NCBI RefSeq assembly: GCF_004010195.1
Contig: NC_057736.1
Location: 17,991,535 to 18,055,534 of the forward strand
DNA from: Chiloscyllium plagiosum
Taxonomy: Eukaryota
DNA length: 64,000 nt
Reading direction: 5' to 3'
In this document: positions 22,170-64,000 of the stretch, piece after piece
Position numbering within the stretch: the first letter of the stretch is position 1
Layout: each line of letters opens with the position of its first letter
Notes under the pieces: model-generated
What the model was told of the DNA's origin: nothing
What the model saw: only the letters and a program-made list of their open reading frames with translations
Databases searched by the model: none
Translations under genes and position numbers: made by a program

Positions 22170-22370
22170 CTATTGGTTAGGAGGATCATTTTCATAGATA
22201 CATTCTTCAGACTGTACATTTATGGAAAATGTCTCATTTATATAAAAGGGCTCCATGTGTTTCATATTTACATATGCCTCCACTACGTGTCGCTCAGTTG
22301 TGCCAGTCGAAGAAGTAAGCTGAGGGGTAACTGCTGTGATGTTGGGTGACGAGGAAGCCAGGGTAACACT
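22170..22370 (-). CDS. BTLA: BTLA-like gene A, cytoplasmic exon 2 (tyrosine motifs YVNM, YINE, YEND)
   Basis: cctttccag|AGT acceptor, phase 0; SVTLASSSPN...EAYVNMKHMEPFYINETF...ECIYENDPPNQ then TAG overlapping a TA|GTGAGT donor. IYENDP matches the BTLA IYDNDP Grb2 motif. Confidence 0.8.
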   Translation of the reverse strand, partial: SVTLASSSPNITAVTPQLTSSTGTTERHVVEAYVNMKHMEPFYINETFSINVQSEECIYENDPPNQ

Positions 22371-22644
22371 CTGGAAAGGATCAAACATAAAAATATTATT
22401 GGATAAATATACACAAATACATTACTCAGTGGATGGATATACCACTAGGGCTTGATGGTTTTCTATAAAATGCCTCAACAGTGAATCAACCTCTCTCTAA
22501 TGATCAAATTCTTACTAATACTTGATAATAAACATTTATCTTTCAATCACTTTCACTAAATGATTTCTTCACTATAAAATTGCTGTTTGTACGAGCTTGC
22601 TGTGTGTCAATTAGCTGCTGTAAATAGTAGAATATAGAATTGTA

Positions 22645-23390
22645 AACCACCATTTCTATCACTTTCAACAGGATGTCACAACCAAACACATCTTCCCCTT
22701 CCATTCCTTGTCAACTTTCTGCAGAGACCATTCCCTCCAGGACACTCTAGTCCACTCCTCCTCCATTCCCAACATCGCCTCATTCACCCACAGCACCTTC
22801 CCTTGCAATTGCAGAAGGTATAATAATTGCCCATTTACCTCCACCCTCCTCACTATCCAAGGCCCCAAACATACTTTCCAAGTGAAGCGGTGATTCACCT
22901 GTTCTTCACTCAATCTAGACTCCTGAATTTGCTATTCACAATGCCGTCTCCTCTACATTGGGGAGACAAAATGCAGTCCGGGCAACCCCTTCACCAAGCT
23001 CGAAGCTCATTTTCCCATTGGGAATCCTGCAGCCTCTCGGATCCAGCATTGAGTTTCACAACTGTAGAGACTGATTACGCCTTCCATGTTTTTTACCCAC
23101 CCCACACTCACTCTTATTATGACAGGGGCTGCTTCTAGTACAGTCACCCATTCGTACATGCTCCTCAGCCTATTATCACATTATATGAGTTGCATTCAGC
23201 ACAGCTAACCCCTTTCTCACTCTTACCTTTTATTATCTCCCATCCGTCTCCACTTCAGATTCAGTATAAATACCACTTTGTCCTGGCTATTGTCAGTTCT
23301 GATGAAGAGTCACTGGACTCAAAATACTAACTCTGTTTTATTCCCACAGATCTGCTAAGTTTCTCCAGCAACTTCTGCTTTTGTTTCAGT
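22645..23390 (+). mobile_element. Degenerate Penelope-like element
   Basis: FCRDHSLQDTLVHSS...FPCNCRRYNNC homologous to the copies at 31500 and 48400; decayed hammerhead motif at 23299. Confidence 0.8.
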
Positions 23391-25285
23391 TACTGTAATT
23401 CACGCATGACAACAGTGCCGAGACTTCAAAAACACTTTACTATCTGTAAACCACCTTACGATGTTCTGAAATCATGAAAGACCCTATAATAAGCATAAGT
23501 TCTTTCTTTTATGGGGCTTTCAGTTCAAGCTGGCCAGAACAATAAACACAAATTTGACTCTAATTTACCTGACTCTAACCTTCTGCTATTGCAATGGAGG
23601 TGAATGGAAACCTAGTCTGAACATCTGCGGCTGTTGCAATAAAGAGTTTATATCTGAGATGTCCATCACCTACCTTTTCCCACTAGAAATATTAGATGCT
23701 AAGAGTATGTTTTCACTTATGGGAGAGACAAGCACTCAGGCAAAACAATTTCAAAATAAACGAGTCTCTCGTTTAAAATGGATTTGAAGAGATTTTCTTT
23801 TCTTTCAGAGGTTTAACCTTTGGAATTCTCTTCTCGAGAGAACAGGAAGGCAGATTCATTGAAAAGTTTTAAGGCTGACTTAGATAGCTTGATTAACAAG
23901 AGAGTCAAGTGTTTAATACATAGACAGGAAGATAGAAACAAATTACCGCAGATGCTGGAATCTGTACTGAAAACAACAAATGCTGGAGATCACAGTGGGT
24001 CAGACAGCATCCACAGCATCCACAGAGAGAGAACAAGCTCATGTTTCGAGTCTACATGACTCTTCACAGGAGTAGAGTTGGGGTCACAATCAATTAGCCA
24101 TGATCTTAATAAATGGCAGAATGGGGAAAGGCTTACTCCTGCTCCTAATTTGTATGCATGTTTATTGCTATTTCCATTTTATTTTTGCTGTTGTGAGACA
24201 TTGCTGTGCACAAATTGTTTGCCATGTTTCCTACATTAGAACAGTGAATACACTTCAGAAGTATATCATTACTGTAAAGTGTTTTGTGTTGACTCAGGAT
24301 GACAGAGGAATTACATAAACGCAAGTTAATTCTTATGATAAAAATTCAGTCACAGAGAGATTGCTCAGCTTTAAACTCATTTGAACAGAAAAATCACTTC
24401 AAAAAGCAATAATAATTTATAATCTAAGACTAAAACATATGTAATTAACCTGGTTGAAATTATATTCCCAGCAGTTACCCAAAAAGGGCATATCCCTGAA
24501 GTTTTATTGCTCACTGAAAGGAAGAACTACATTTCAATAGCACCTTTCACCACTCAAACACCCCAAAGCCATTTGCATCTAATTACGTACTTTTCAAGGG
24601 AACTCCAGATTCTATTTTATTTGTTCACTGTAAATAACTACCATTTTTGTAATATGCAATGGAGTATTTACATTATATTAAATAATCTGAATTATAAATA
24701 CAAGGAAGCCTCAGTGGTGAACATCAGGAGGCATCTAATCTGGGAGCTCTAGTGGTGTGTATATGCAATAACAGAACCATGGTAGAAATTTACAGGCAGG
24801 AATCTAATTAAGGGTCTTGCATTGTTTAGAAATCAAAATAATGGTCTATCTGGATTGAGTAACAGTCTGGAATCCAATGGTAAGGTGCAAGAAGTTTATA
24901 CTTCAAGTCAAGATACTGTGGACTGAGTTAGATGCTAAAATCTAATTGGGTAGCTTTTCTGACAGTGGGATGGGGTGTTGAATTTATACATTGAATGAAG
25001 ATACCTGGAGAGTTAAAGGCTGGAGGGTTGTGAATCTTTGGAGTCCTTTCACCATAGAGCCGTGAATGCTCAGTCATTGAGTTTTCATCATTACAATCAT
25101 TACAGATTGTTTGGCACAATAAGAATCAATGAATAAAGCAAGAAGGTAGATCACTCATGATCTTATTGAAACAGGTTCAAGTGGTGTTTGCCACCAACCC
25201 TTCCATCCCTCCCATCGTCACCCTGCAATTTCATACATTTGTACATTTTTCTCTCGAATGATGCCTCACATGTCACCACAGTTAC

Positions 25286-25329
25286 CTTTACTTGGGCTCT
25301 TTGTCTTCTCAGCGCCAACTTCCGTTTTT
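25286..25329 (-). CDS. BTLA: BTLA-like gene A, cytoplasmic exon 1 (basic juxtamembrane)
   Basis: gctttttaaag|AA acceptor (phase 1), EKRKLALRRQRAQVK, AAG|GTAACT donor (alternative in-frame donor CAA|GTAAAG ends at 25292); phase 0 fits the next exon. Confidence 0.75.
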
Positions 25330-25439
25330 CTTTAAAAAGCAAATCAACAAATAGTATCAATGCACATGGCAACAAATCAGCTATGTATTTATAGTAATGT
25401 TGATAAATGAGTGTCCTCTTCTGCTGTGCGGGTGCTTAC

Positions 25440-25556
25440 CTCGACAGTATAGCATGATACAGACTATCACCACCGACAGAGGCAGAATGCTCAAAAAGTA
25501 CCATTTATTTGTGGTTTCAGTGTGTTCAACTGGTATTAAGGGAGCATCAGAAGCTT
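25440..25556 (-). CDS. BTLA: BTLA-like gene A, stalk and transmembrane exon
   Basis: gtttttcag|AA...CGAG|GTAAGC, 117 nt, phase 1-1; EASDAPLIPVEHTETTNKWYFLSILPLSVVIVCIMLYCR resembles the BTLA TM (W...LLPL...C). Confidence 0.88.
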
Positions 25557-27109
25557 CTGAAAAACACACACTGTGCATGAACAATCCGTATAGGACATGA
25601 ACAATGTATAATATACCCATACAAGCAATTTTTCTCACCCAATGTTCTGTTACCAATTTCTACTCTGTAGACATTGTTTTTGATTTGATGTTCTCTGTGT
25701 GTCTCTCTCATATAGACTCAATGATATGGGACATAAAAGTTTTTTGTTATAATTTTTGCTAGCCAAACAGCCCCTTTGATCTCATCAACACAAAAGGTAA
25801 TGATGCCTGTGAATGTGACCGTCTCCATTTCAGGCACCTAGTGTCAACATTAAACACTGCCATGTCAAATCAGGATAATTATAAATATTTTCTAATAGAC
25901 CTGTTCAGAGGCACAATTACATACTGCTGGAGCGGATGGGTCTTGAATCTCGGCATCCTGGCCCAGGAGTAGGGATATCACCACTGCACCACAAGGGCCC
26001 TCCAGCTATGTGGAGAGAGTAAAGTTCCTTGTATTCTTTCCCTTTGATGCGCTTAAGCCCACTTTGGAACTGTTTCCCATTTAATGCATCAATGGGAACT
26101 TGGACCCTAATTTGATTCTGTTCAAGTTCCTTTCGAGTCCTACAGAGGCAAATCAGATAATTTCAATGAGCTGGGAACAACTATTGGAACTAGGCATGTA
26201 AAAAACTTCTGATTTGTACATAAAACACTCCCAGACTTGATCCTAGATGAGGCTTCTCTGCACCCTTGACATCTGGTTTTCCTGTATCTAGGATGTCCTA
26301 TCAGGCATGCACAGCATTCATGAAACCAGGTTGAATACAGAGTGTAAAATGTTCAAGCTGTTAAGAAAGGAAAATAAAGAAAATATATTGCAGGAGAAAA
26401 TGGAGAAACTTTGACATTAAAACCTGAAGGAAAACAAATTGGAATAAAATTAATATATCAATAAACAGATTATATAGGCTTGTGAGGAGGAGGAAAAACA
26501 AATATCTCCATTGAAGCTGTTGCCAGAAAGCAAGGTGAATGAAAAAGAGTTATTAGAAAATCTGAGATTGGATGGAAAAAGTAAGTTTGGAAGGGAGAGA
26601 AACAAACTTCTCATGTCAACAATTATTAAGTGAAAACGTTGAAAGCATAACTTCTTGGAGTGCCCTTACGTTAAAGTAGAAAACAATGATAATTTAGTTG
26701 CAATGAATAAGGTAATAGGAGTTATATCTGATTCACATGTTACATTAGTGTTGAACAGATATTTACTAACTAATCTGTTCAAAGATATATGACACACCTG
26801 TGGAGTTGGATGGGCACTTGAATCCAGATCTCCTGCTTTAGAGGTACAGATACTACCACTGCACCACAAGATTCTCCTGTGTTAGTGTAAAACATTATCT
26901 GCACCTCAGTGGTCCTCAAGTATCATACACTCAGCCTATTCACTCTTTAAATCAATGTGCATTCAGGGTATCCTGAGGAACCTATGCTCAATGCTGAACC
27001 CAGGGTAGGACAATCCTACTCTTTGCATTCTTTTCAATCAAGAAAAGGAAGAGAAAGACTACATTGTGTGTTCTTGGGGTTTAATAATGAGGTACATTCA
27101 AATAATTAC

Positions 27110-27439
27110 CAGTCACATTTACAACAATGGAATGACCCCTTGCCATCACATTTCCTTGAGAAGCTTCACATCGGAATGTGCCACTGTCGCTGTAGTTGAG
27201 GGCGGCGATCTTGTAACTGACAAGTAAGTTTCCTTGCTGGTCATGGTTGAAACTAAGCCCATTTGTAGACACCGGGTGACAATGGTGTGCCTCAATTATG
27301 CACCAGTTTACTACAGGCTTTTGTTCTTCACCAGTACAGAATTTAACTGTACAATTTAGTGTTAGACTATCTCCCACGGTGAGGTGCAACGTAGATCGGG
27401 GATAGATTACTCTCACTGGACAGGCACAATTTCCATTTC
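27110..27439 (-). CDS. BTLA: BTLA-like gene A, Ig domain exon
   Basis: tatttcag|GA...ACTG|GTAATT, 330 nt, phase 1-1; C...GDSLTLNCTVKFC...WC......C...DSGTFRC...GHSIVVNVT reproduces the BTLA 6-Cys pattern (human C..GDPFELECPVKYC..WCK....C..NGSYRC..SHSTTLYVT). Confidence 0.92.
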
Positions 27440-28145
27440 CTGAAATAGAGAAGCTGTAGGTCAATCTATGTACCATTTCTACACTGCCCTCTCATTACAT
27501 TCTATGTATTTTTTAATACTATACAACAGCCCTCCAGAAACAATACCTACTCTTTAAATGTACCTTTGGATTTGAACTTGAGAGTTTCTGATATTGATTC
27601 TTCCAGAGGGAGTTGGTGATATCAAGGAATGTTGGCTCCCGGTCATGTTTTCATGCAGTGCTCTTGAGTAAGAATGAAAATTTCCAAAGAGCGACTGAAT
27701 ATTTTCCTGTTTGCATTTAAATCAATTATTCTCATAAATCAACAAAAGGTTCCAGAATCATTACAGTTTCAGCAATTTTTCTCGTCTTATCTCAGTGGAT
27801 AGCACTCTGATCTCTCAGTTACAGTTGAACTGTAGTTCTGGACTCAGGAATTGCTGCATTGTTGGAGATGCAGTCTTTGGAGGAAACATTTAAAAGAGGC
27901 CTGTCTGCTTCCACTGGTGCAGGCAAAAAAAATTCTTCATGCCATTCAAAGAACAGCAGATGTGTGCTGCCTGGTATCTTGGCCAATATTCAATACAAAG
28001 ACAACACCTTGCCATTATCCTGTTGCTGCTTATTGGACTTGCAAATTAAGATTGTGACAACATTTCAAAAGTACTCCTTTCACGAGAAAAAAACTCCTTG
28101 CTTCATCCTGGCTTTAGAAATGTAAGTCCTTCATTCTGACCAATT

Positions 28146-28300
28146 AGAGTCATAGAGTCATAGAGATGCACAGCATGGAAACAGACCCTTCGGTCCAACC
28201 CGTCCATGCCGACCAGATATCCCAACCCAATCTAGTCTCACCTGCCAGCACCTGGCCCATATCCCTCCAAACCCTTCCTATTCATATACCCATCCAAATG
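28146..28300 (-). mobile_element. Short CR1 LINE 3' end
   Basis: agagtcatagagtcatagag tail; close match to the reverse complement of 7115-7260. Confidence 0.85.
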
Positions 28301-29326
28301 ATCTGTAACCCACTATTCTGAATTTCACTTACTTATACCATTTGCTTGGTTTGGATTCATGTTTATGCTGTCCAGCACCAATTCAGTTTCTGAATTTCCA
28401 TGAGATAAGCCATGGCATTTAGAGTTCCATTGATCACATGGCTGTCTCTGTCAGACATTGACTTAAATTTCATTGCAATGAAATTATTATTCCATTGCAA
28501 TGCTGTGATAATGGAGTGTGGCTGGAAGTACCATCATTAGTCATGAGGTTTTTTATAAAAGACCCCATGGAACTATTTAAGGATGAGCACAGATGTTCGA
28601 GTGCCATGTCTGAAATATCTTCTTCACTCCACGTCACATTAGCGACATGCTTTTGTATAGTATCTTTTATGTCATAAAACATCCTGAACTGCTTCACAGG
28701 AGTATTCTCAAACATCATTCGGTGCCAATCCACAAGAGGAGTTTTGCCTTCAAGCTATGCATGGTCCTGACTTGGAACTATATTGCGGCTCCTTCACTGT
28801 CACTGTGTTCAAGGCCTGGAACTCCCTTCCTAACAGCACTGTGAATATTGTTAAGAAAAATTTATAACTTCAAGTTTGAATTATAATTTTGCACCATTTG
28901 TGTTAAGAAGGTGAAAACATGGTTGTTGATTTTTAGAGATTTTTTTGTGAGTTGGGATTTTGGTGTTGAGAAGTCTGGAAGTTTGTTTCATTTACTTTTT
29001 TTTATAAACTTGATTTGAAGAGTTGGAGGGTGGAGAGTTAGCTGCTTAACAATTATAAAAATATTATACTGCTCATTAGTGACCAAGTCCATTGATGCAG
29101 AGAAATAGAACAAAGCAGAAAGTATGCACATACCAGAAATGGTATGCTGAATTTAGGGAAATTCATAGTGAGATTATTTGCAGTTTGTTTTAGGTGTCTC
29201 AGGGAGACACTAGATGAAGGAAATAGGGCATCTAAAAAATGAATAGAAATTAGCTGACAGGAAATGGTTGCAATAGTGTGAGCTTCTTGACATCTGTAAC
29301 CTTTTACTTTGTCCAGTGAAACACAA

Positions 29327-30388
29327 AGTTTGTGCGAAGATTTGTAGTTCGGGTGCTCGTTGTTGTGGTTCTGTTCACCGAGCTGGAAGTTTTTGTTGCA
29401 AACATTTCATCCCCTGGCTAGGCGACATCATCAGAGCTTGGGAGCCTCCTGCGAAGCGCTTCTTTGATGTTTTCTCCGGTGTTCGAATTCATGTTGCTTG
29501 TTGTCTGCGTGTGTGGCTACTAAGGATAGCTGGTTGTGTCGTTTCGTGGCTAGTTGATGTTCATGTATGCGGATTGTTAGCTGTCTTCCTGTTTGTCCTA
29601 TATAGTGTTTAGTGCAGTCCTTGCATGGTATTTTGTACACTACATTCGTCTTGCTCATGTTGGGTATCGGGTCCTTCGTTCTGGTGAGTTGTTGTCTGAG
29701 CGTGGCTGTTGGTTTGTGTGCCGTTATGAGTCCTAGCGGTCGCAGTAGTCTGGAAATCAGTTCCTAGATGCTCCTGATGTATGGTAGTGTTGCTAGTCCT
29801 TTTGGTTATGGTATGTCCTCGTTCCGTGGTCTTTCTCTTATACCTCTGCTGATGAAGTTGCGCGGGTATCCGTTTTTGGCGAATACCTTGTATAGGTGTT
29901 CCTCTTCTTCTTTTTGCAGTCCTGGTGTACTGCAGTGTGTTGTGGCCCTTTTGAATAGTGTCCTGATGCAACTTCGTTTGTGTGTGTTGGGGTGGTTACT
30001 TTCATAGTTTCGGACTTGGTCTGTGTGTGTGGCTTTCCTGTGTCCTCTTGTAGTGAATTCTCCGTCTGGTGTTCTCTGTACCATCACGTCCAGGAATGGG
30101 AGTTGGTGATCCTTTTCTTCTTCTCTCGTGAATCGGATTCCTGTGAGCGTGGCGTTGATGATCCGGTGTGTTTTTTCTTTCAACGGCACACAAACCAACA
30201 GCCACGCTCAGACAACAACTCACCAGAACGAAGGACCCGATACCCAACATGAGCAAAACTAATGTAGTGTACAAAATACCATGCAAGGACTGCACAAAAC
30301 ACTATATAGGACAAACAGGAAGACAGCTAACGGTCCGCATACATGAACATCAACTAGCCACGAAACGACACGACCAGCTATCCTTAGT
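29327..30388 (-). mobile_element. Penelope-like retroelement (RT C-terminus and GIY-YIG endonuclease) with inverted segment 30177-30388
   Basis: LPFLDVMV...KATHTDQ...KNGYP and NVVYKIPCKDCTKHYIGQTGRQLTIRIHEH; the GIY-YIG segment recurs on the plus strand; hammerhead-like motif at about 29401-29437 (minus). Confidence 0.93.
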
Positions 30389-31142
30389 TTGCACTTTTCT
30401 TGTGTGTTAAGTGTTTTATCTTTTGTCTTAAAAGTACACTGGCAGCCTCTTGTGAGTGTATTCAGTAACTGATAGCTTAAGAAAAGCCAGGTTTCACCCT
30501 AGGATTTCACTTGATAAGTATTAAAATCAGCTGAAATCCTACAAATTAACCAATACCACTTAGACTGCAATGCTTCAAAAGGTGATTCACCATAACCTTC
30601 TCAAAGACAATAATAACGTGAAATAAATATTGGGTTAGACAGTAATCCCCACATTACGTGAATGAATAAATGGAAAAACATGTTCGAGATGGCCAAACAT
30701 GCTTGGTCAGGGAGTAGGCTTTATGGAGCATTTTAAAGGAGTAAAGAGAAATGGAGATGTTTAAAGATGGCATTTCAGAGCTTAGGGCCCAGCGGACAAG
30801 GGCATGGTTGCTATTGATGATTGCCAATATGTTCCAAAAATCATCATTGCACAAGAGCCAGAGTTATAGGACCACTGAGATCTGTAAGGGTTGTCAAGAA
30901 AGATGAAGTTACAGAGTCCAGGTAGGAGACAGGCCATGCAGAAATTTGCAAACAAGTGTGAGAATGCTTAAAACTAAGTGATGCCTAGTTCCAGAGCCCA
31001 TGTAGCTCAGTAAGTGCAGCGCTGGGGGGTGAGCAAGATTTGGTTGGAGTTAACTGCAGAGTTTTGGATGAGTTCAAGTTTATGGAGGATGGTGGCTCGG
31101 AGTCCCGTCACTGGAGTAGTGGAGCAGAGATGAAGATGGAGG

Positions 31143-32235
31143 ATGGGAGGTCTGCAGATGCTGGAGATCAGATTTGAGAGTGTGTTGCTGGAAAAGCACA
31201 GCAGGACAGGTAGCATCTGAGGAGCAGCAAAATCAAATTTCGGGCAAAGGCCCTTCATCAGGAATGAGGCAGGAAGCCTCGAGGGTGGAGAGGTAAATGG
31301 GAGAGGGGTGGGGCTGGGGAGAACGTAGATGAGAGTGCAATAGGTGGATGAAGGTAGTGATGAAGGTGATAGGTCAGAGAGGAGGGTGGAGCGGATAGGT
31401 GGGAAGGAAGATTGAAAGGTGGGACAGGTCATGAGGACATGCTGAGCTGGAAGGGTGGAACTGGGATAAGGTGGGGGGATGGGAAATGAAGAAACTGGTC
31501 CACACCCCCTAAGAAGCCACATCCCCTTCTGGCACCTTCCCCTGCCACCGCAGGAATTGCAAAACCTGCACCACACCTCCTCCCTCACCTCCTTCCAAGG
31601 CCCCAAAGGAGCTTCCACATCCATCAAAGTTTCACCTGCACTTCCACACGTCATTTATTGTACCTGTCGCTCCCGATGCGGTCTCCTCGACATTGGGGAG
31701 ACTGGACGCCTTCTTGCAGAGCGCTTTGGAGAACATCTCGGGACACTTGCACCAATCAACCCCACCGCCCCGTGGCCGAACATTTCAACTCCCCCTACCA
31801 CTCTGTCGAGGACATACAGGTCCTGGCCCTCCTCCATCGCCATTCCCTCATCACCCAACGCCTGGAGGAAGAATGCCTCATCTTCCGCCTGGGAATACTT
31901 CAACCCCAGGGCATCAATGTGGACTTCACCAGTTTCTTCATTTCCCCTCCCCCCACCTTGCCCCAGTTCCAACCTTCCAGCTCAGCACCGCCCTCATGAT
32001 CTGTCCGACCTGCCAATCTCCCTTCCCGCCTATCCACTCCACTCTCCTCTCCTACCTCACCTTTACCCCCACCCTCCTCTGCCTATTGCACTCTCAGCTA
32101 CCTTCTCCCCAGCCCCACCTCCCTCCCATTTATCTCTCCACCCCCAAGGCTCCCAGCCACATTCCTGATGAAGGACTTTTGCCCGAAGCGTTGATTTTCC
32201 TGCTCCTTGGAAGCTGCCTGACTTGCTGTGCTTTT
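31143..32235 (+). mobile_element. Penelope-like element with inverted terminal repeats (31143-31500 minus, about 31925-32235 plus)
   Basis: VIYCTCRSRCGLLDIGETGR (GIY-YIG-like), LIFRLGILQPQGIN; a hammerhead motif in each terminal copy. Confidence 0.9.
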
Positions 32236-33916
32236 CCAGCAACACACTCTCAACAATGAAAATGGAAGATGTTAGGTAAGGGATTGGTTGAGAGATGGAG
32301 GTATTGGCTAAAGAAGGGAATTGTGAAATAGTCAGAAGGCAATGATTTTAATTAACCTACTGGTTACTCATTAAATTCAATGATTGTGGAATCTTGCTGT
32401 GTACCATTTGTTGATATTTCAACATTGATTGTACTTCAAAAGTAAAGAATTGGCTGTAAACTGTTTATAATGGCTTAGAGATTTGAAAACATGGTTGAGT
32501 AAAAATTTCACTTCTACGAATGTAGCTTATGATTTTCCATACATTCATTTTCGATAGACTATCAACTCAGTTGAAGTATAACTGAAGAGGCAAATAACTC
32601 AGAAGACGAACAAAGGCAGGAGAGTCCAGAGATCTGAGACTAGCCAGCTGCTTCATAATGATGTGGTTTGCAAAAACATATTGTGCTTTCTCCAGTTCTA
32701 ATTCCAGTAAACCAACATTTCTGAATATACTTTCAGAGTTTATCCTCCTACAATGAGTTGACCTCCATCTTACAGTTGATTATGGGTCTGGTTATTTACA
32801 TAGTTGCAAACCTGCTGGTGGAGTTAAACATGTTAAAGATTTAGCATGCAAAATGTCAGAAGCTTATTGATGCTGCAGTTTCCTGGAATCCAAATTAAAA
32901 CAGGATTAATATGAAAATTACAGCGATTAGTGGCATGTCAAGTTATCTGTCATGAGGTGCAGTCACCCAAATTGTTGTGTATCCAGCAACATTTCTACTG
33001 TTAACGTATGCTTTGGTATGTGCCTCGCCCTTATACCCTACTATTCCAGTTTATCAATCTTTTTCAAGGCTACCATTTAAGACTCAGTATTGTAGGAACA
33101 AAGAGTTAATTTACATTTATTCCGATATATAATTCACTTTGAGTTTAATTTTTTTTCCTGTCCCTTGAAAATATTCAGCAAAAAGAATTTTAATTGGCAG
33201 TAAAGCAGGATGTTTATCTCTGCCTCCACATTGAAAAAGATGCACTATTTTATCTGTACACCCATATGTATGTGGCTCAAGATGTGTGAAAGGATGATGA
33301 AGCAACAGTGAGTCCAATCCGCACACAGTAATGCGACTATGAACCATTTGTTAACTTTGCAATCTGCAAAATCGCTAATATCCCTAAGTGCCAGCAGCAA
33401 AGGACATAAAACCAAATATATAGCTTCATCCCAAAAGTCTTATTCAAAAATCTTCAAGGTGAATAACATAATTACTTGAAATACCATCTTCACTTTTTTT
33501 CTTCATAGATGTCAATGAACTTAGCAGAGAATATAATAATTTGTTTCGATGGGAAAGAATATTTGTGCATTTTTAGAATAAAAATAGTTTGCAAAGTTAA
33601 CAAATAGTTCATAATCAGATTACCATGTGCAGACTGGTCTCACTGTGGTTCCATGACCTCCTCACACATCTTGAGTTACATATATATGTGTAAACAGATA
33701 AAATGTATAGAGAATGCCTCTACTTCAATGTTGCTACAGTGATAAACATCCTGCTTTACTAACGGCTCCTCATACCAAAGGGACCATATATTGAGTCATA
33801 GAGATGTACAGCAGTCCAGATATCCTAAATTAATCTAGTCCTATTTGCCACCTCTTGGCACATTTCCCTGTAAACCCTTCCTATTCATATACCCATCCAG
33901 ATGCCTTTTAAATGTT

Positions 33917-34139
33917 ATGATGTAGAGGTGCTGGTGTTGGTCTGGGGTGGACAAGGTCAGAAGTTACACAACACCAGGTTGTAGTCCAACAGGTTTATTT
34001 GAAATCGCAAGCTTTTTGAGCGCTGCTCCTTTGTCAGGTGTAGTTACCTTCACTCGACGAAGGAGCAGCACTCCAAAAGCCTGTGATTTCAAATAAACCT
34101 GTTGGACTATAACCCATTGTCATGTGACTTCTGACTTAC
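33917..34139. mobile_element. Short palindromic Penelope-derived non-autonomous element
   Basis: Two inverted arms (aggtcagaagt...gctcctttgtcagg / cgacgaaggagc...acttctgactt); flanked by aaatgtt direct repeats; homolog at 54523-54705. Confidence 0.75.
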
Positions 34140-34577
34140 AAATGTTGTAATTGTACCAGCCTCCACCACTTCCTCTGGCAGCTCATTCCATACCTCTGAG
34201 TGAAGATGTTGTCCCATAGGTCCCTTTAAATCTTTCCTCTCTCACCTTAAACCTATGCCCTCGAGTTTTGGACTCCTCTACTCTGGGGGAATAGGCCTTG
34301 ACTATTCACCCTATCCATGCAACTCGTGATTTTATAAACCTTTATGAGGTCACCCCTTAGCCTCCTACACTCCACAGAAAATAGCCCCGGCCTATTTGGC
34401 CATTCCCTATAGCTCAAACTCTCCAACCATTTCAACATCCTTATCAATCTTTTCTGATCCCTTTCAAGTTTAACAACATAATCTTTCCTAAAGGAATGAG
34501 ACGAGAATTGAAAGCAGTGCTCCAAAAGTGCTCTAACCAATGTCTTATACAGCTGCAACAACTCCGGTACTCTATGC

Positions 34578-35737
34578 CAGGGGTGGGGAACCTGCGGCCT
34601 TTTCGGCCATTGTGTGTGGCCTTTTGAATTAATCCAAATTTTGCAGAACTAATCTTTTATTTTTTATTAATATGTTTTTTCATCCTTTATTATTTTTATT
34701 TTACTCTTAAAATAAATGTATTTAAAATACCAGAGTAAAAGAAAATTCAACAAAATAATCCTCACAGACTGACCGCCACAATTAAAAAATTGGTAAATCA
34801 TAAGGGCTATTTCGACACCTGCTATGCTCATGATTTAGTTATAATGTGACTCTAGAATGGCGTTACCTTCCCCGCCTGACTGGCGCCACTACCGTTGTAT
34901 TTCTGCGTGATATCATGTCAAAGCAAAATGACTTGAATATAAAACTAGGTCTATATACGATATGTGGCAAAAAATCCAAGCGTTTCGAAAAAGGCTATCT
35001 TTTTTCAAAACTCTTTTTCTTCAAAAGGAAATTTCAGATGAACATTTTCCCCAGTTAGCAAAGGTCATTGATGAACAGGAGGATTCTTGCGAATCATTTG
35101 AAGAATATGCAGCTGTTATAGACTTATTAATTGGAGAATACAATGAAAGGTTCTCTGACTTTGAGAATCATGACATCACACTCAAATTAGCATTTCAGCC
35201 TCACCTAGTTGATGTCTCCAAGGCTCAGAAAGAACTACAGATGGAATTGATTGAGCTCTCAAAAGATGACATTTTTAAGTCTTTATTTGACACTAAGAAA
35301 GATCTGATTGAAATATGGAAAAATGCAATAGAATACCCATGCCTTCGGAAACATGCACGAAAAATGCTTTCTTGCTTTTCAACCACTTGTTGCTGCAAAT
35401 CTAAATTCTCCTACTTAACCAAAATCAAGACGCCCTTAAGGTCACAAATGACAGATACCCATCTAGAGGATCAGCTAAAACTGCAGACCTCCACGCTGCA
35501 GCCAAATATTTAAATGCTTTCCACAAAAAGCAGCCACAACAACATCATTAAAAGGTTAGTTAACGTTAGAATTAACATTTTTTTCATTTTCTTTAGTTAG
35601 TTAATACATAGTAGTTAGATTTGTACAAAATAATGTGAATTTTGAAGAATATATAATTGAAGTTTCTTGGATGCAGTCTTATTAGATTACAACTAACATA
35701 ATGCGGCCTTCCAACATGAAAAGGTTCCCCACCACTG
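34578..35737 (+). mobile_element. hAT (Charlie-type) DNA transposon, internally deleted, retaining the transposase C-terminus
   Basis: TIRs CAGGGGTGGGGAACCT / AGGTTCCCCACCACTG; 8-bp TSD ctctatgc/ctctatgt; ORF 34962..35513 with WK...YPCL...FSTTCCCKSKFS...RSQMTDTHL (hAT dimerisation-like). Confidence 0.92.
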
Positions 35738-36964
35738 CTCTATGTACTGACCAATAAAAGCAAGAATACCAACCACCTTCTCTTCTACCCTGTTTACCTG
35801 TGATTCCACTGTCAAGGAACTATGAGCCTGCACTCCAAAGTCCCTTTGTTCAGCAACACTTCCCATTACCTTACTATTAGCTCTATAAGTTCTCCCTTGA
35901 TTTGCCCTACCAAAATATAGCACCTCACATTTAATGAGACAAATTTTCATCTGCCATTCCTCGGCCCATTAGCCCATCTGATCAAGATCTCGTACTCTGA
36001 GGTAACCTTCGTCACTGTCCACTACACCACCAATTTTGGTGCCATCTGCAAATTTACTAACCATACCTCCTATATTCACATGAATAGCATTTATATAAAT
36101 GAAAAACGCAGTGGACCAGCACAACACTGGTCACAGGCCTACAGACCGAAAAGCATCGCTCCACCACCACCCTCTGTCTCCTACTTTCTAGCTAATTTTG
36201 TATCCAAATGGCTAGGTCTCACTGTATTCCATATGATCTAACCTTGTTAACCAATCTACCATGTGGAACCTTATTGAACACCTTACTGAAATCCATATAG
36301 ATTACATCCACCACTCTGCCTTCATCAATTCTCCTGGTCACTTATTCAAAAAACTAAGTCAAGTTAGTCAGGTACAATTTCCCATATATAAAGCCATGCT
36401 GACTATCCCTAATCAATCCTCACCTTTCCAAATACATGTAAATCCTGTCCCTCAGGATTCCCTCCACCATCGACATCAGGCTCATTGCTCTATAGTTTCC
36501 TGGCTTTTCCTGACCACCTTTCTTAAATAGTAGCATCATGTTAGCCAACCTCCAGTCTTCTGGCACTATGGATGATACAAAAAATCTCAGCAATGGGCTC
36601 AGGAATCACTTCCCCAGCTTCCCACAAATTTATAGAGCACAGCTGATTTGGTCTTAGGAATTTATCCACCTTTATGCATTTTTAAGACATCCAGCATCTT
36701 CTTCAATGTAAAATGGACACTTTTCAAGATATCGCTATTGCTGATGCAAAATACTTGTTTATTATTTCCCCTATCTCCTGCAGTCCCACACATAGGATTC
36801 TCCTTAATCCTGTTTGCCAAAGCTATCTCACGTCCCCTTTTTGCCCTCCTGGTTTCCCTCTTAAGTGTACTCCTACTGCCTTTCTACTATTCTAGGGATT
36901 CACTCAATCTCTGCTGTCTATACCTGACATATGCTTCCTTCTTTTTCTTAACCAAACCCTCAAT

Positions 36965-37524
36965 NNNNNNNNNNNNNNNNNNNNNNNNNNNNNNNNNNNN
37001 NNNNNNNNNNNNNNNNNNNNNNNNNNNNNNNNNNNNNNNNNNNNNNNNNNNNNNNNNNNNNNNNNNNNNNNNNNNNNNNNNNNNNNNNNNNNNNNNNNNN
37101 NNNNNNNNNNNNNNNNNNNNNNNNNNNNNNNNNNNNNNNNNNNNNNNNNNNNNNNNNNNNNNNNNNNNNNNNNNNNNNNNNNNNNNNNNNNNNNNNNNNN
37201 NNNNNNNNNNNNNNNNNNNNNNNNNNNNNNNNNNNNNNNNNNNNNNNNNNNNNNNNNNNNNNNNNNNNNNNNNNNNNNNNNNNNNNNNNNNNNNNNNNNN
37301 NNNNNNNNNNNNNNNNNNNNNNNNNNNNNNNNNNNNNNNNNNNNNNNNNNNNNNNNNNNNNNNNNNNNNNNNNNNNNNNNNNNNNNNNNNNNNNNNNNNN
37401 NNNNNNNNNNNNNNNNNNNNNNNNNNNNNNNNNNNNNNNNNNNNNNNNNNNNNNNNNNNNNNNNNNNNNNNNNNNNNNNNNNNNNNNNNNNNNNNNNNNN
37501 NNNNNNNNNNNNNNNNNNNNNNNN
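36965..37524. other. Assembly gap (N run)
   Basis: Run of n. Confidence 1.
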
Positions 37525-37978
37525 ATGCCGACCAGATATCCCAACCCAATCTAGTCTCACCTGCCAGCACCCAGCCCATATCCCTCCAAACCCTTCCTAT
37601 TTAAATACCCATCCAAATGCCTCTTAAATGTTGCAATTGTACCAGCCTCCACCACTTCCTCTGGCAGCTCATTCACCCTATGTGTGAAAAAGTTGCCCCT
37701 TAGGTCTCTTTTATATCTTCCCCCTCTCACCCTAAACCTATGCCCTCCTTTCCGGACTCCCCCCACCCCAGGGAAAAGACTTTGCCGATTTAACCTTTCC
37801 ATGCCCCTCATAATTTTGTAAACTTCTATAAGGTCATCCCTTAGCCTTCGATCCTCCAGGGAAAACAGCCCCAGCCTGTTCAGCCTCTCCCTATAGCTCA
37901 AATCCTCCAACCCTGGCAATATCCTTGTAAATCTTTTCTGAACCCTTTCAAGTTTCACAACATCTTTCTGATAGGAAG
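37525..37978 (-). mobile_element. CR1 LINE 3' part
   Basis: ORF KLERVQKRFTRILPGLEDLSYRERLNRLGLFSLE...NELPEEVVEAG. Confidence 0.92.
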
Positions 37979-40449
37979 CCTGTCCATTCCTGAGTAAAGT
38001 TTCTGTAATTGCTATGATATCCCAGTCCTATGTTCCTAACCATGTCCTAAGTTCATCTGCCAGGCCTCTTGCATTGAAGTAAATGCAGTTAAATTTGTCA
38101 GTTCCACCTCGTACAAATGATTGTTAAAAATTGCAACTTTTAAATTCAGTGAGTTGGGAACATAACTTGATTAAAAGTTTTAGAACTTGCTCAATCTCTA
38201 ATTATAAATTCCTGCATATCCTTGTCCAACATCCTGCCCCATATCTTGGTCAATATTGCATTCCTCTGACTCTGGCTTTTTATGCAGTCCCTCCTGACCT
38301 TTGCTCACTGTTCTAGCCTAGTCTTCAACAAATTGGGTTTAATTTCTGATATCTCCTGAAGTCAGTCCATTACTTTCTCTCCCCTTTTAAAACCTGTTGA
38401 GTAAATCTTTCTTTCCTGACCCAATCAGCTTTTCAGCATGCCTATCTCAGAATCATCAAGAAATGTCCTTTCATATTAAACCTCCTAAATTGAAGTAAGG
38501 TTACATAATGTGGCTGAGAATCGTGACATTCAACCACCACATAAATCTTCTCACATTCCAACTCCTCATCCCAAACCTGTCCCATTCCTGTATTATCTTC
38601 TCATGTCTGTATTAATTCTCCTCTTAAATGGATCAAATACCCTGTAATCCACACACACCCCAGGATGGTTTGTTTCACAGTTTCACCACACATTCTTCAT
38701 ATTTGATGACTCTGTACTTCTCTCATATTTATGTATCCTTATTCTAAATTCATCTAACAGTTGAAAACATATTTCATATTCACCAAATCTCTTCATAATT
38801 TTAGAGCTGTCTTATGGAAATCAGCAATGGCCCTTATATAGTCTTCAATGAATCACCGTGCACAGGCTTGAACTAGAATTGGTGACACTTGAGATTTTGA
38901 TGTTCACCTTTATATTGCAGTGTGGTGTGTCAATGAGACCCTTACGTCAACCTCAATATCCTTACTGCCTGTTGTATTAAAAAATACACTCCCATCCATT
39001 AACTGCAAGAAGCTACTCCTGGTAGTTCAGTGAATAAAAGAAAAGAAATTTCTTTTCATCCACGAAGAAACCAACAATGCCTGATATTAATAGATTGCTG
39101 CTTAACACCACTCGAAGCGCTCTTTGAGACCTAAACTCTCAACGTTAACAATACAACTTCAAGCCTGATGAAGTTTGGACAGTTCACAGGAAATCATAGA
39201 TAATCGTCTCATGAAAGATTGGATACAAAAGAACCTTGGTTTGGATTTTCTACAGTATTTATGGGTAATCCTAAATTACATCCAGAAAACTTGCAGCAGA
39301 TTAAAAACTAAAAATCTTTAATTTTGTTTTATTCATAGGATGAGGGTTTTGCTGGATAGACGAGCATTTATTGCCCATCCCAAATTGCCCAGAGAGCGGT
39401 TAAGAGTCAATGATGTTGCTATGGGTCTGGAGTCACATATAGGCCAGACGCGGTAAGAATGGCAGTTACCCTCCCTAAATGACATTTGTGAATCAGATGG
39501 GCTTTCCAGCAATTGGCAATGGATTCAAGGTCATCATTAATTCCAGCCTCTTAAATTCAGATTTTATTGAATTCAAATTCTACCATCTGTAATGTTGAGA
39601 TTCAAACCCCAGTCCCTAGAACATTACTTGGATTTCTAGATTAACTGTCCACAAGGACATCGCCTCCCAGTTTGTGATTGTGGTTACTCACAATAGGCCA
39701 TGATAGCTAATGGGTCAATGTCCAATCCACAAATGCAAAGGAGATACCACAATGATACACGCTACTATTCCCAACACAATGATCAGCTTCAGCCATTTAA
39801 ACTCTAAATGTAAATGTCCGCTGTTTTTCTACATTTCTATCAGCAATACAATTTTAAAGGAAGGATTTGAATGAGAACATGACTAAATTCAGTTTGCTTT
39901 TTTGCTCTCCTCTCTTACCCTCTCTAACTATTTGTTTACAGTGCTCCATCTAAGGCTGCAATACTGTGGAAAGATTGCTCTCTGGAGCCAGAAGTGATCA
40001 TCACCATCAGGAGGAGAAAAAAAGAACAATCAGAGGGAAAAAAAAATCTTATCCCAGCACAACTGATCAAATCAATGGCAAAAATAGGAAATAAGTTACA
40101 AATTTTAACAGCGTTAAAATTGTGGACACTTCCATCGTCATTGTAAAGGTCATAAATTTACTCTTTAAAATAGTAAAGAGCCTGTCTTTGAAGAAACCTT
40201 TTCCAAGGTTGCTCTCCCGGTCTAATGAGCCAATCAAGTAAGGGAATTAGGATTCTAAACATTCCCACATTTAAACCTATCATTATTAATTCTTAAAATT
40301 GTAAGCTTGGTACTGTCAAAATTTCTCATTAGATCTGATGTGTCATTTATACACTATCATTTGCAGACACTACAATTCAAAAATAATTTTAAAACATTAA
40401 GTTTAAAAAGGAAACTTTATATTTTAAGTAAGTTATTCATCAGTCCTAC

Positions 40450-40513
40450 CTTGTATTAGTGAGATTATCAGGAGACATTGAAGACAAACCTGCTGCAATA
40501 TGCTGAACCACAT
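40450..40513 (-). CDS. BTLA: BTLA-like gene A, signal peptide exon
   Basis: accATG context; MWFSILQQVCLQCLLIISLIQ(G); CAAG|GTAGGA donor, phase 1, matches the Ig exon; in-frame TAG upstream. Too short for the ORF track. Confidence 0.85.
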
Positions 40514-49990: not shown

Positions 49991-50060
49991 ATGATCCCTG
50001 TCAAGCAGTTGAGAGTTGCCATTGGCTTGTTCCTCCTCCTGGTTTTGATTCAATTACAAG
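49991..50060 (+). CDS. BTLA-like gene B, signal peptide exon
   Basis: MIPVKQLRVAIGLFLLLVLIQLQ(G/E); CAAG|GTAAGA donor, phase 1. Ends in CAAG| like the gene A leader exon. Confidence 0.88.
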
Positions 50061-56470: not shown

Positions 56471-56584
56471 ATGGATTAACAATAACAGAACTGTGTTTTA
56501 TTAAGAAAAGATTGTTTGTGCCTTTCGCTTGATTACAATTTTGAAATTATACAAATATATGATCTTGTTTGTTCTCTCTTTCAG

Positions 56585-56923
56585 AAAACACTACATCCAC
56601 CTGTTCAGTGAGAGTAGGATACCCCAGAGCTAAGTTAAACTGTAGTGTTGGAGACAGTCTAACACTGAATTGTACAGTTCTGTTCTGCCCTCAAGATCTT
56701 CTTGTGACTTACTGGTGTAAGATACTTATGAACACCTGTCAGCGACTGAATAGTTCAAAGAATCAGCAGCTCAATTCACATTCTTCTGAAAACACTGAAA
56801 GAATGTTACTAGTGGTTTTCACAGTCCCTTCTGTTACCTTGGCCGACAGTGGCAGATATTCCTGTCATGCTCAACAAAATGGTGTGGAATCACAGGGACA
56901 CTCGATTATTGTGAACGTATTTG
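56585..56923 (+). CDS. BTLA-like gene B, Ig domain 1 exon
   Basis: ctctctttcag|AA...TTTG|GTAAGG, 339 nt, phase 1-1; TC...VGDSLTLNCTVLFC...YWCK....TC...DSGRYSC...GHSIIVNV (BTLA Cys pattern). Confidence 0.92.
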
Positions 56924-57890: not shown

Positions 57891-58663
57891 TTTTATCACA
57901 AGAACAACCCCTGCCCAACAGGTCCATTCTTGTACCTTTCTGCTCCACATGGTAGGTAAAAGACTTACTATCCAATTGAATGATGCTTGGTCATCAGCCA
58001 AATAACCTTTTCCCCCTGATTTTGGATATTTTTATATCAAATATTTAAAGAGGATTCTAAAAAAAAATGATCCTTTTGAATATCTCTATGATTTTCTCCA
58101 GGTTTCCACATAGCAGTATCATGGAAACTTATCAGTTCCTGCAGACTCCAGGCCAATTTTGGAGCCTGAACTATGGGACTTGGAGACATATTTAAGCCAG
58201 ATCAGATAAGGAGGTGATTTTTCCTGTCCTCAAGGATTTCACTAAAGCCGTTAAGTTTTTATGATCAATATTAATTTGTGTCTTTTACAGTTGTTTTACT
58301 TACAGTTGGATTCTTTTTAAAACCAGAATATAAATTCTCAAAAATCCAAAGAACTGTAGATGCTGGAAATCAGAAACTGCTGGAGAATTTCAGTAATATC
58401 TATGGAGAGAAAGTAAATTTAATGTTTTGGGTCTGGTGACCATTCTTTAGATTCTCCACAGATGCTACCCAGGCCGGCTGAGGTTTTCCAGCATTTTCTA
58501 ATATTTGTATAATTTCTCAAACTGCCATTGTGGGATTTGAACTTGATTTTCCAGAACTGGCTTTATAGATTATGAGTCTATAATGTAATATTACAACTAA
58601 GGCAAGTAATGAAATTATAGAAATATATATATAACAGAATGTCCTGATTGTTCTCTCTTTCAG

Positions 58664-59008
58664 AAAATACAAAAACTGCCTGCTCTCTCTCGATACTGCA
58701 CCAGAGGGCAGTTTTTAATTACAGTGTTGGAGATAGTCTAACCTTGAATTGTACAGTTCAGTTCTGTGTTAATGAAGTACAACTGCCTGAGGCTCACTGG
58801 TGTAAGATGTATGGAAATCTTTGTCAGCCAGTGACTGGAAGGACTCATTATCCAAACATAAGCTATTCTCTTCAGGACAGGGAAATGAAGATGTCAGTGA
58901 TACACACTGTTACTCATGTTGAGCTGAGTACAAGCGGCTTTTACCAGTGTCAAGCAACACAAGGAGCTGTAACCACAGTGGGCCAGCTTGTTCGTGTAAA
59001 TGTGACAG
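58664..59008 (+). CDS. BTLA-like gene B, Ig domain 2 exon
   Basis: ctctctttcag|AA...ACAG|GTAAAC, 345 nt, phase 1-1; AC...VGDSLTLNCTVQFC...HWCK....LC...SGFYQC...VRVNVT. Confidence 0.92.
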
Positions 59009-62925: not shown

Positions 62926-63838
62926 TTTTATAAAATTCTAAATACCCAGACAAACCTATATGCTTAACTTAAAATTCCAAGTAGCCAAACTTGCAGTAAT
63001 TGTTATTAGGATATGTATATACATAAATGTCACAGTTTCATCACACCTTACAATACTTCAGTGAGAACTATCTTCACACTAAAGCTCCCTGCTCACACTC
63101 CAATTGGGACAGTTGCAACCAATTTTCTCATGATGATTTTCTATGTAGTAGATGCTTTAGATGCCTTTTGCTTTTATCGGATGTCTCCCCGAGACACCTG
63201 AAACAACCGCAAACTAAACTTGGTATTACTTTAAACTTTAGAACAAATACCAAGTTCCTAGATTCAGCGATCCAGCTGACCTGCCTCAAACCTCTGGCAC
63301 TCTCACACAAACTAACTCATCTTGGATTGTTTCATTTCTATGCATGTCGAGACTCCAGCCACTCGGTGAAAGTAGGGTTTTATTTGATCTCAAATACACT
63401 GAATTATTTACTCCAATAGTTTAAAACCTCAGTGAAATGCATGTAAAGAGAATAAATCTCCAGATTCTCTGTTATCATTCATAGTGCAAAGATAAAGTGA
63501 ATCTAAACCATGTCACCCTGACTTAATGAATAAAATATAAACTGTAAATTCAACTTAAAGTTACACATTAGCTCTTAACACAACACTCCAATTTGTCTGT
63601 TGTGAATGTAACAGCCCTTGGGTTAGCATTTGACGAAAAATGCGTATGTTGCCTAGTATTCTAGCCCCCTCCTCCTCCTTATGTCACCACCAAAAAACTA
63701 AAAGAATTTAGCATTGATGGTATATTGCTGTGTACGTACTGATGATTGTGGTTGCCTGTACAAGGACAATGACTGGTCTTCATTGTGTTAAAAATTTAAT
63801 ATTTTCTACAATTTAATTTGTTTTTGTGTATCTTCCAG

Positions 63839-63948
63839 AAGGTTCACCAACACATTCTGTGTGGAGGTGGTACAACATCGGCAGATGGGTCGCATTTGGT
63901 TTGATGGCCATGATGCCTATATCATTGTGTATCCTGGGGTGTGGCTAA
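63839..63948 (+). CDS. BTLA-like gene B, terminal exon: stalk and hydrophobic segment with NxxR, no cytoplasmic tail
   Basis: ttgtttttgtgtatcttccag|AA acceptor, phase 1 fits the Ig2 donor; EGSPTHSVWRWYNIGRWVAFGLMAMMPISLCILGCG-TAA (63946-63948). Confidence 0.8.
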
Positions 63949-64000
63949 GGTAGCGACCAAGACAAGATTTTAACACTTCCATTAGTTAATAAAGATATTA

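What the first reader, a model, noticed from the sequence alone, without database searches (positions are those of the whole stretch)
63839..63948. Gene B ends in a tail-less hydrophobic segment with an N-x-x-R motif: activating FcR-gamma-type receptor or GPI anchor
Seen: ...WYNIGRWVAFGLMAMMPISLCILGCG-stop, with N-I-G-R at 63874-63885 just before 20 uncharged residues and an immediate stop. Known: activating leukocyte-receptor-complex proteins (LILRA NLIRM, NKp46 NLLRM, FcaRI NLIRM, GPVI NLVRI) use an NxxR arginine at the TM start to pair with FcR-gamma/CD3-zeta and have short tails; CD160, the other Ig-type HVEM ligand, is GPI-anchored. Inference: gene B is either an ITAM-adaptor-coupled activating BTLA paralog or a GPI-linked decoy.
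Basis: partly seen in the sequence, partly recalled or inferred. Interest (0 to 1): 0.8.

Follow-up and report, generated by a model that had tools for sequence, protein, structure and literature searches.

The report
Tail-less shark BTLA relative, membrane arginine
Sharks and a chimaera carry an unstudied relative of the immune brake BTLA that has no signalling tail but keeps a charged arginine in its membrane anchor, the usual sign of an activating receptor that borrows a signalling partner.

Summary
Gene B is an intact four-exon gene (287 aa: signal peptide, two BTLA-type Ig domains, membrane segment, stop), 273/287 identical to a Hemiscyllium protein. The Arg is kept in 6 of 6 orthologs that have this exon, including the chimaera Callorhinchus. 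None has a signalling tail. The Asn is in only 1 of 6; the other five have Ser. So 'NxxR' is a lineage-specific coincidence, and the other marks of the LRC-type NxxR segment are absent. The segment aligns in register with the shark BTLA membrane helix, with Arg replacing an uncharged residue at position 8. Best reading (0.55): an activating BTLA paralog whose Arg pairs with a zeta-family ITAM adaptor. CD3-zeta is documented in sharks; FcR-gamma was not found there in a 2014 survey. Rivals: a tail-less decoy or ligand with no adaptor (0.2), or a GPI anchor (0.15; usable omega site in only 3 of 7 sequences). Sharks also have an ITIM+ITSM BTLA and a YxN-tailed gene A, which suggests a paired-receptor family. 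No function was tested. My ten literature searches found no description of it, but one key 2007 paper was unreadable.

The parts
49991..50060 (+). Gene B exon 1: start codon and signal peptide
   Evidence: 22 of 22 residues match the P0001 N-terminus; GT donor, phase 1
56585..56923 (+). Gene B exon 2: Ig domain D1 with BTLA-type cysteine pattern
   Evidence: 50 of 107 identical to Mustelus BTLA P0160
58664..59008 (+). Gene B exon 3: Ig domain D2, BTLA-type
   Evidence: best PDB sequence hits are BTLA, E 1.6e-4; 96% identical to P0001
63839..63948 (+). Gene B exon 4: short stalk, membrane helix with Arg, stop; no cytoplasmic tail
63883..63885 (+). Arg267 codon, position 8 of the BTLA-register membrane helix
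   Evidence: invariant in 6 of 6 orthologs with the exon; the position is uncharged in 10 of 10 chondrichthyan-type BTLA membrane segments
63874..63876 (+). Asn264 codon (the 'N' of NxxR); not conserved
   Evidence: Asn in 1 of 6 orthologs, Ser in 5 of 6
63946..63948 (+). Stop codon TAA
   Evidence: same position in Hemiscyllium and Heterodontus; two residues later in 3 other sharks; ten later in chimaera
63988..63993 (+). AATAAA, possible polyadenylation signal
   Evidence: 39 nt after the stop; chance about 0.05 from the window's hexamer rate
22170..40513 (-). Gene A (context): single-Ig BTLA-like receptor with uncharged membrane helix and YxN tail, head-to-head with gene B; exons 40513-40450, 27439-27110, 25556-25440, 25329-25286, 22370-22170
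   Evidence: 251 aa intact, 231 of 251 identical to P0008; orthologs named BTLA-like

Best explanation
Gene B is an activating-type paralog of BTLA in cartilaginous fishes. It is a type I membrane protein with two BTLA-type Ig domains and one membrane helix, derived from the BTLA membrane exon, in which an Arg replaced an uncharged residue in the outer third. With no tail, it would assemble in the ER with the Asp pair of a zeta-family ITAM dimer (CD3-zeta/CD247, or FcR-gamma if sharks have it). Ligand binding would then signal through Syk/ZAP70, opposite to the ITIM+ITSM shark BTLA. Shown: gene structure, conservation of the Arg and of the missing tail, kinship to BTLA, and an inhibitory shark BTLA. 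Inferred: membrane placement of the Arg. Inferred from mammalian rules only: adaptor pairing, activating outcome, and sharing a ligand (HVEM or a pathogen mimic) with BTLA.
For: (1) The Arg is invariant in 6 of 6 orthologs from five shark species and the chimaera, whose Ig domains are only about 40% identical to the sharks'. The W260-C282 segment has 9 of 23 invariant columns, against 29 of 115 in D2, 10 of 113 in D1 and 0 of 8 in the stalk. (2) No ortholog has a signalling tail: 20-22 residues follow the Arg in sharks and 30 in chimaera. (3) The segment aligns at offset 0 with 10 chondrichthyan-type BTLA membrane helices (shared W-x-x-Y start, Gly13; score 12.2 against a shuffle mean of 1.0, p=0.037), placing the Arg at helix position 8, where BTLA has Val (7 of 10), Gly, Leu or Ala. 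(4) The AlphaFold model has one helix, 255-276, through the Arg. Conserved positions lean to the Arg face (p=0.015 by frequency, 0.09 by invariance). [quoted passage not shown] (6) Five named shark BTLAs carry IIYASL and TEYAAI. (7) Catshark CD3-zeta transcripts are reported (PMC10768021).
Against: No binding or signalling was tested, and I could not obtain a shark adaptor sequence to model. In sharks the helix has no basic cytoplasmic residues after it. In this lineage it is only weakly hydrophobic (rough estimate about -0.6, against -2.7 to -5.2 for gene A and BTLA; my own approximation with recalled scale values), which also fits a GPI signal. The Arg is at position 8 of the BTLA register, against position 3 given for Fc-alpha-RI; with a start at W262 it would be position 6. 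FcR-gamma was not found in shark genomes in 2014 (PMC4016189). The helical-face and register tests are modest, use related sequences, and the face test uses a window I bounded at invariant residues. All ortholog ends are RefSeq predictions whose RNA support I could not see. One of 7 ortholog species (Cetorhinus P0006) has a truncated model without this exon and was left out of the counts.
Confidence: 0.55

Rival explanations
1. A tail-less membrane protein with no ITAM adaptor. It acts as a decoy that competes with BTLA, or as a cell-surface ligand. The Arg serves anchoring or pairing with another membrane protein.
For: No tail in any ortholog. Seven other residues around the Arg (W260, Y263, W268, F271, G272, L273, P278) and C282 are as invariant as the Arg, more than simple adaptor docking needs according to PMC1440944. 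Dense Trp/Tyr and a second Arg (R261, 5 of 6) could make the Arg an interface residue.
Against: The Arg replaces a residue inside the BTLA helix. In chimaera it is preceded by eight uncharged residues. A pure decoy would not need a buried charge kept for so long (inference).
Confidence: 0.2
2. A GPI-anchored protein, working like CD160: the C-terminal hydrophobic stretch is a cleaved signal.
For: The protein ends in a hydrophobic stretch with no basic tail in 5 of 5 shark orthologs. In the window, Hemiscyllium and Rhincodon a permissive triplet (N/S-I-G) lies 23-25 residues from the end; omega+1 is promiscuous and Gly at omega+2 is efficient (PMC2119539 abstract). CD160-like, mostly tail-less relatives were retrieved by the gene B profile.
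Against: That triplet ends in Cys in the other 4 of 7 sequences, and no candidate omega triplet is shared by all 7. The would-be linker holds three aromatics and is modelled as helix, whereas it should be low in structure, and the hydrophobic run starts at omega+4 rather than omega+10 (PMC2571997). The chimaera model ends in 15 polar or charged residues. The would-be discarded peptide is strongly conserved. The CD160-like group is a separate clade (99/91) with a different cysteine pattern. No GPI predictor was available; this was a hand rule check.
Confidence: 0.15
3. The main transcript continues beyond the window to a cytoplasmic (ITIM) tail, and the stop here is a lineage-specific truncation or a minor isoform.
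For: The stop is followed by a donor-like G|GTAGCG in the same phase as gene A's membrane-exon donor. The window ends 52 nt after the stop.
Against: That site scores 5.0, against 7.1-11.3 for seven real donors of genes A and B, and 8.5% of 3405 GT sites score as high (recalled frequencies). All 6 orthologs with the exon end within 0-10 residues of this point. An AATAAA follows.
Confidence: 0.06
4. A decaying or non-functional duplicate.
For: The Cetorhinus model is truncated. No ray or skate ortholog was named among the 14 hits.
Against: Intact 287-aa frame with canonical splice sites, and orthologs in 7 species spanning sharks and chimaera.
Confidence: 0.04

Closest known systems
BTLA (CD272), inhibitory HVEM receptor; shark orthologs P0160-P0164
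   Same: Ig domains with the six-cysteine BTLA pattern; best single-domain PDB hits; grouped with chondrichthyan BTLA in trees (support 86/68); membrane helix in the same register.
   Different: Two Ig domains instead of one; Arg in the membrane helix; no stalk of BTLA length; no ITIM, ITSM or YxN tail.
FcR-gamma-coupled NxxR receptors (LILRA, NKp46/NCR1, GPVI, Fc-alpha-RI, OSCAR, TARM1, Xenopus XFL TM1)
   Same: Arg in the N-terminal part of a type I membrane helix, and little or no tail (PMC1440944, PMC6557307, PMC2413239).
   Different: Asn not conserved; no DYT upstream and no acidic C-end; BTLA-type rather than LRC-type Ig domains. It would be a convergent solution.
CD160 (GPI-anchored HVEM ligand)
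   Same: Distantly related Ig domain (24.5 bits against 42 bits for BTLA); tail-less hydrophobic C-terminus.
   Different: Separate clade. The two CD160-like domains closest to it lack the strand-A/BC-loop cysteine pair that shark gene B domains have (chimaera D2 also lacks it). Weak, unconserved omega site.
Paired receptors with activating and inhibitory members (KIR, LILR, SIRP, CD200R families; SIRP and CD200R recalled)
   Same: Similar ectodomains joined either to an ITIM tail or to a charged membrane residue; hints of within-lineage homogenisation of D1 with BTLA.
   Different: BTLA is a single inhibitory gene in mammals (recalled). D1 and shark BTLA are only about 47% identical, so this is an old pair, not a recent one.

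Membership tests
BTLA family (ectodomain) | Ig domain with three disulfides in the BTLA pattern | tested here: met
   D1 and D2 of the window and of the shark orthologs printed have all six Cys; chimaera D2 has four
BTLA family (ectodomain) | Closest solved relative and tree placement with BTLA | tested here: met
   BTLA is the top hit for D2. With the two-domain profile, multi-domain pIgR and VEGFR2 score higher but BTLA is the best single-domain protein. Groups with chondrichthyan BTLA at 86/68, not starred.
BTLA family (ectodomain) | Binds HVEM (TNFRSF14) | not testable with these tools
   No shark HVEM sequence in hand; searches for the contact residues gave nothing
BTLA proper (inhibitory ortholog) | Cytoplasmic ITIM plus ITSM | tested here: not met
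   No tail; the motifs are in separate shark genes P0160-P0164
LRC-type NxxR membrane segment | Conserved Asn three residues before the Arg | tested here: not met
   1 of 6 orthologs
LRC-type NxxR membrane segment | Upstream DYT motif and acidic residue(s) at the C-end (PMC6557307) | tested here: not met
   absent in 7 of 7 sequences
Zeta/FcR-gamma-coupled activating receptors (functional class) | Conserved Arg in the N-terminal part of a type I membrane helix | tested here: met
Zeta/FcR-gamma-coupled activating receptors (functional class) | Short tail without signalling motifs | tested here: met
Zeta/FcR-gamma-coupled activating receptors (functional class) | Physical, Arg-dependent assembly with an ITAM dimer | not testable with these tools
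   no shark adaptor sequence obtained; needs co-expression
GPI-anchored proteins | Small omega and omega+2 residues 17-31 residues from the end | tested here: inconclusive
   N/S-I-G in 3 of 7; S-I/L-C in 4 of 7; no site shared by all
GPI-anchored proteins | Unstructured linker before omega, spacer omega+3 to +9, hydrophobic tail from omega+10 to the end | tested here: not met
   aromatic helical linker, hydrophobic from omega+4, polar 15-residue end in chimaera; hand check only
GPI-anchored proteins | PI-PLC release | not testable with these tools
   bench test
CD160 orthologs | Single Ig domain grouping with CD160-like proteins | tested here: not met
   two domains; CD160-like clade separate at 99/91. 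That clade's CD160 label rests on one member's PDB hit, E 1.1e-4; the atlas gave no CD160 name.

The most novel reading that the evidence does not exclude
BTLA began as a paired-receptor family. Cartilaginous fishes keep three signalling formats on one BTLA-type ectodomain: inhibitory (ITIM+ITSM), Grb2-type (gene A, YxN tail) and adaptor-coupled activating (gene B). Other vertebrate lineages evolved charged-helix BTLA partners independently (unnamed P0037 with a membrane Arg is 79 of 87 identical in D1 to ITIM/ITSM-bearing P0040; P0060, P0080, P0132 have Arg or Lys two positions deeper). If sharks lack FcR-gamma, gene B would be a conserved non-TCR receptor that signals through CD3-zeta, and mammals' lone inhibitory BTLA would be the reduced state.
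Probability: 0.35. Interest if true: 0.75.

Novelty: new variant of a known kind. Interest (0 to 1): 0.52.

Why it matters
BTLA is a clinical checkpoint target known as a purely inhibitory receptor. An activating paralog kept since sharks and chimaeras split (about 400 million years, recalled) would show that the BTLA-HVEM axis once had a built-in counter-receptor. Such partners are thought to arise against pathogen mimics of the ligand. It would also give a concrete shark receptor for asking which ITAM adaptor served non-antigen receptors in the earliest jawed vertebrates. The mechanism class itself is well known, so the surprise is where it occurs, not how it works.

Tried and rejected
NxxR as a conserved motif: rejected. 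The stop as a private nonsense change or assembly error: rejected, since Hemiscyllium and Heterodontus stop at the same codon and three other sharks two residues later. An alternative membrane exon in intron 3: none among 13 acceptor-like sites. An earlier scan for internal exons gave two candidates, both in repeat-derived DNA. The inhibitory BTLA inside this window: not found (tblastn of three BTLA stalk-tail regions, best E 0.51), and its linkage to gene B is unchecked. Gene B's membrane exon as a copy of gene A's: no support (p=0.19), but only 5 offsets were covered, so that test is incomplete. Foldseek with the two-domain model returned generic Ig tandems, and the atlas search gave only generic V-set clusters; neither is informative. 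Pfam gave Ig families for the domains and nothing credible for the last exon. One donor 9-mer ('A cyt') was mis-indexed and is ignored. Bernard et al. 2007 (PMID 16928399, 'multiple BTLAs') is not held, and the main supplementary PDF of the elephant shark genome paper was too large to read; either may bear on novelty. No complex prediction was run because no adaptor or HVEM sequence was in hand. DeepTMHMM, NetGPI and PredGPI were not available.

Full report
Observation. The window is shark DNA: the gene A Ig exon is 100% identical to a Chiloscyllium plagiosum RefSeq protein. At the finding's coordinates there is an acceptor AG (63837-63838), a phase-1 exon from 63839, N-I-G-R at 63874-63885, 20 uncharged codons and TAA at 63946-63948. 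It splices to exons 49991-50060, 56585-56923 and 58664-59008 into an intact 287-aa protein, 273 of 287 identical to Hemiscyllium ocellatum P0001. It is the only hydrophobic exon among 13 acceptor-like sites after Ig2, and an AATAAA follows 39 nt after the stop (chance about 0.05). The description is accurate.

Orthologs. Searching with D2 gave 6 proteins among 48 candidates. The profile search gave 14 among 5343 and added the chimaera Callorhinchus milii (two isoforms of one gene). That makes 7 species. The Cetorhinus model is truncated before the last exon and is left out, so 6 have the exon. They are named 'uncharacterized protein', except one 'netrin receptor DCC-like'. In all 6 the Arg is invariant, with W260, Y263, W268, F271, G272, L273, P278 and C282. 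The Asn is in 1 of 6 (the closest relative); the rest have Ser. After the Arg come 20 residues in the window, Hemiscyllium and Heterodontus, 22 in both catsharks and the whale shark, and 30 in chimaera, of which the last 15 are polar or charged. So the Arg and the missing tail are old and selected, and the N-x-x-R spelling is a local accident. No ray or skate ortholog was named; this word-based search cannot show absence. The ortholog ends are annotation models whose RNA support I could not see.

Family. D2's best PDB hits are BTLA. With the two-domain profile BTLA scores 42 bits and CD160 24.5, while multi-domain pIgR and VEGFR2 score higher by summing domains. The shark domains have BTLA's six cysteines; chimaera D2 has four. 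In a 52-row tree (chosen from 120 extracted domains to cut redundancy) D1, D2, gene A and chondrichthyan-type BTLA form one group with moderate support (86/68). A CD160-like group is separate (99/91), and the other, unnamed BTLA-like proteins (presumed bony vertebrate) form another (90/90) (a quick 110-row tree agrees). Five named shark BTLAs (Mustelus, Scyliorhinus, Heptranchias, Heterodontus, Carcharodon) have one Ig domain, an uncharged helix, IIYASL and TEYAAI. That gene is not in the window. Shark D1 sits among shark BTLAs, while chimaera D1 pairs with unnamed P0023 (97/80). If P0023 is chimaera BTLA, which I could not verify, this would be the within-lineage homogenisation typical of paired receptors.

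Where the Arg sits. The gene B segment aligns best at offset 0 with 10 chondrichthyan-type BTLA membrane helices (score 12.2, shuffle mean 1.0, p=0.037). They share the W-x-x-Y start, Ser at position 5 (6 of 10) and Gly13 (8 of 10). Position 8, the Arg, is uncharged in all 10. The Asn is thus a changed ancestral Ser, and the Arg an acquisition inside a BTLA helix. The AlphaFold model of P0001 (mean pLDDT 70, 6-sequence alignment) has a single helix, 255-276. Conservation leans toward the Arg face (p=0.015 or 0.09 by measure). These tests are modest and use related sequences.

Mechanism. [quoted passage not shown] This favours a zeta-family dimer and makes the Asn unnecessary. The true NxxR segment is a distinct conserved module with an upstream DYT and an acidic C-end (PMC6557307, passages; also PMC2413239 and PMC4536121, passages). 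Gene B lacks these, so it may work like those receptors but is not a member. Which adaptor is open. PMC4016189 (passages) found no FcR-gamma in shark genomes in 2014, which may reflect the assemblies of the time. Catshark CD3-zeta transcripts are reported in PMC10768021 (passages). My searches for shark FCER1G returned nothing relevant (listings only). I put adaptor coupling at 0.55; every step after 'conserved Arg in a tail-less helix' is inference.

GPI rival. For it: the shark proteins end in a hydrophobic stretch with no basic residues. In this lineage the stretch is weakly hydrophobic (rough estimate -0.6, against -3.8 in Heterodontus and -2.7 to -5.2 in gene A and BTLA; my approximation with recalled scale values). 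N/S-I-G is a permissive omega site by PMC2119539 (abstract) in 3 of 7 sequences. CD160 is GPI-anchored and also has an activating membrane isoform (PMC13682303, passages). Against it: the other 4 have Cys at omega+2, and no site is shared by all. The linker is aromatic and helical and the hydrophobic run starts at omega+4, against the layout in PMC2571997 (passages). The chimaera end is polar, and the would-be discarded peptide is as conserved as the Ig domains (9-14 of 23 identical to chimaera, against 41-49 of 106 in D2). I put it at 0.15. A switch to GPI in carpet sharks alone is not excluded.

Longer-tail rival. A donor-like site follows the stop, in the phase of gene A's donor, but it scores weakly (5.0; 8.5% of 3405 GT sites reach this), and no ortholog model carries a tail. 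I put it at 0.06.

Context. Gene A lies head-to-head about 9.5 kb away. It encodes a 251-aa single-Ig receptor with an uncharged helix and three YxN motifs, with no ITIM or ITSM. The whole-library search (478 hits at E<=0.001, best 150 listed) also returned unnamed BTLA-like proteins with a basic membrane residue. P0037 is 79 of 87 identical in D1 to ITIM/ITSM-bearing P0040, and P0060, P0080 and P0132 fall in another clade. Three of these four keep tails of 55-83 residues, so they are not simple copies of the gene B design. They do not group with gene B, which suggests repeated origins.

Novelty. Ten searches (listings) found no description of an activating or tail-less shark BTLA paralog. Passages read in PMC12151841, PMC11599192 and PMC13262535 do not mention one. 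The elephant shark genome paper (PMC3964593) has no BTLA hit in its main text or readable supplement, but its main supplementary PDF was unreadable. Bernard et al. 2007 on multiple teleost BTLAs is not held; I saw only its title and one sentence about it in PMC5413580. It may already note charged-helix fish BTLAs. bioRxiv 10.1101/591883 (passages) did not give the HVEM-contact residues I looked for, so ligand sharing is untested.

Verdict. A real, intact and deeply conserved gene; most likely an adaptor-coupled activating BTLA paralog, by a known mechanism in an unexpected family. New variant of a known kind; interest 0.52.

Noticed in passing
window 22170-40513 (-): Gene A: single-Ig BTLA-like receptor whose tail has three YxN motifs (YVNM, YINE, YEND) and no ITIM or ITSM. 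YxN is kept in 4 of 4 full orthologs checked; the YxxM only in the window. Possibly a Grb2-type costimulatory BTLA relative.
   Followed up: partly
window 25440-25556 (-): RefSeq isoform X2 of gene A in Chiloscyllium (P0007) skips the membrane exon, which would give a soluble form.
   Followed up: no
window 1769-11661 (-): A type 1 taste receptor gene (best PDB hit T1R1, E 1e-48, for the 1769-2644 ORF) lies next to the BTLA-like genes. Synteny was not examined.
   Followed up: partly
window 40513-49991: Genes A and B start head-to-head about 9.5 kb apart; a shared regulatory region is possible.
   Followed up: no
window 56542-56687 and 58610-58766: The two Ig exons of gene B share 71% DNA identity including upstream intron, consistent with a tandem exon duplication.
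   Followed up: no
protein P0093 (unnamed): A model fusing a CD160-like Ig domain to what looks like a CD200-receptor-type region (likeness recalled, not tested), hinting that CD160-like genes sit in the BTLA/CD200R cluster in some vertebrates.
   Followed up: no
proteins P0081, P0113, P0155, P0156 (unnamed): Two-Ig proteins with a BTLA-like first domain, a Lys in the membrane helix and short tails (12-40 aa): a separate, possibly DAP12-type activating group.
   Followed up: partly
protein P0159 (Callorhinchus), domain 2: It has lost both cysteines of one BTLA disulfide together, giving a four-cysteine pattern like the CD160-like proteins.
   Followed up: no
window 36965-37524 and 47971-48219: Two assembly gaps (N runs), one in gene A intron 1 and one between the genes; many LINE/SINE-type repeats throughout.
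   Followed up: no
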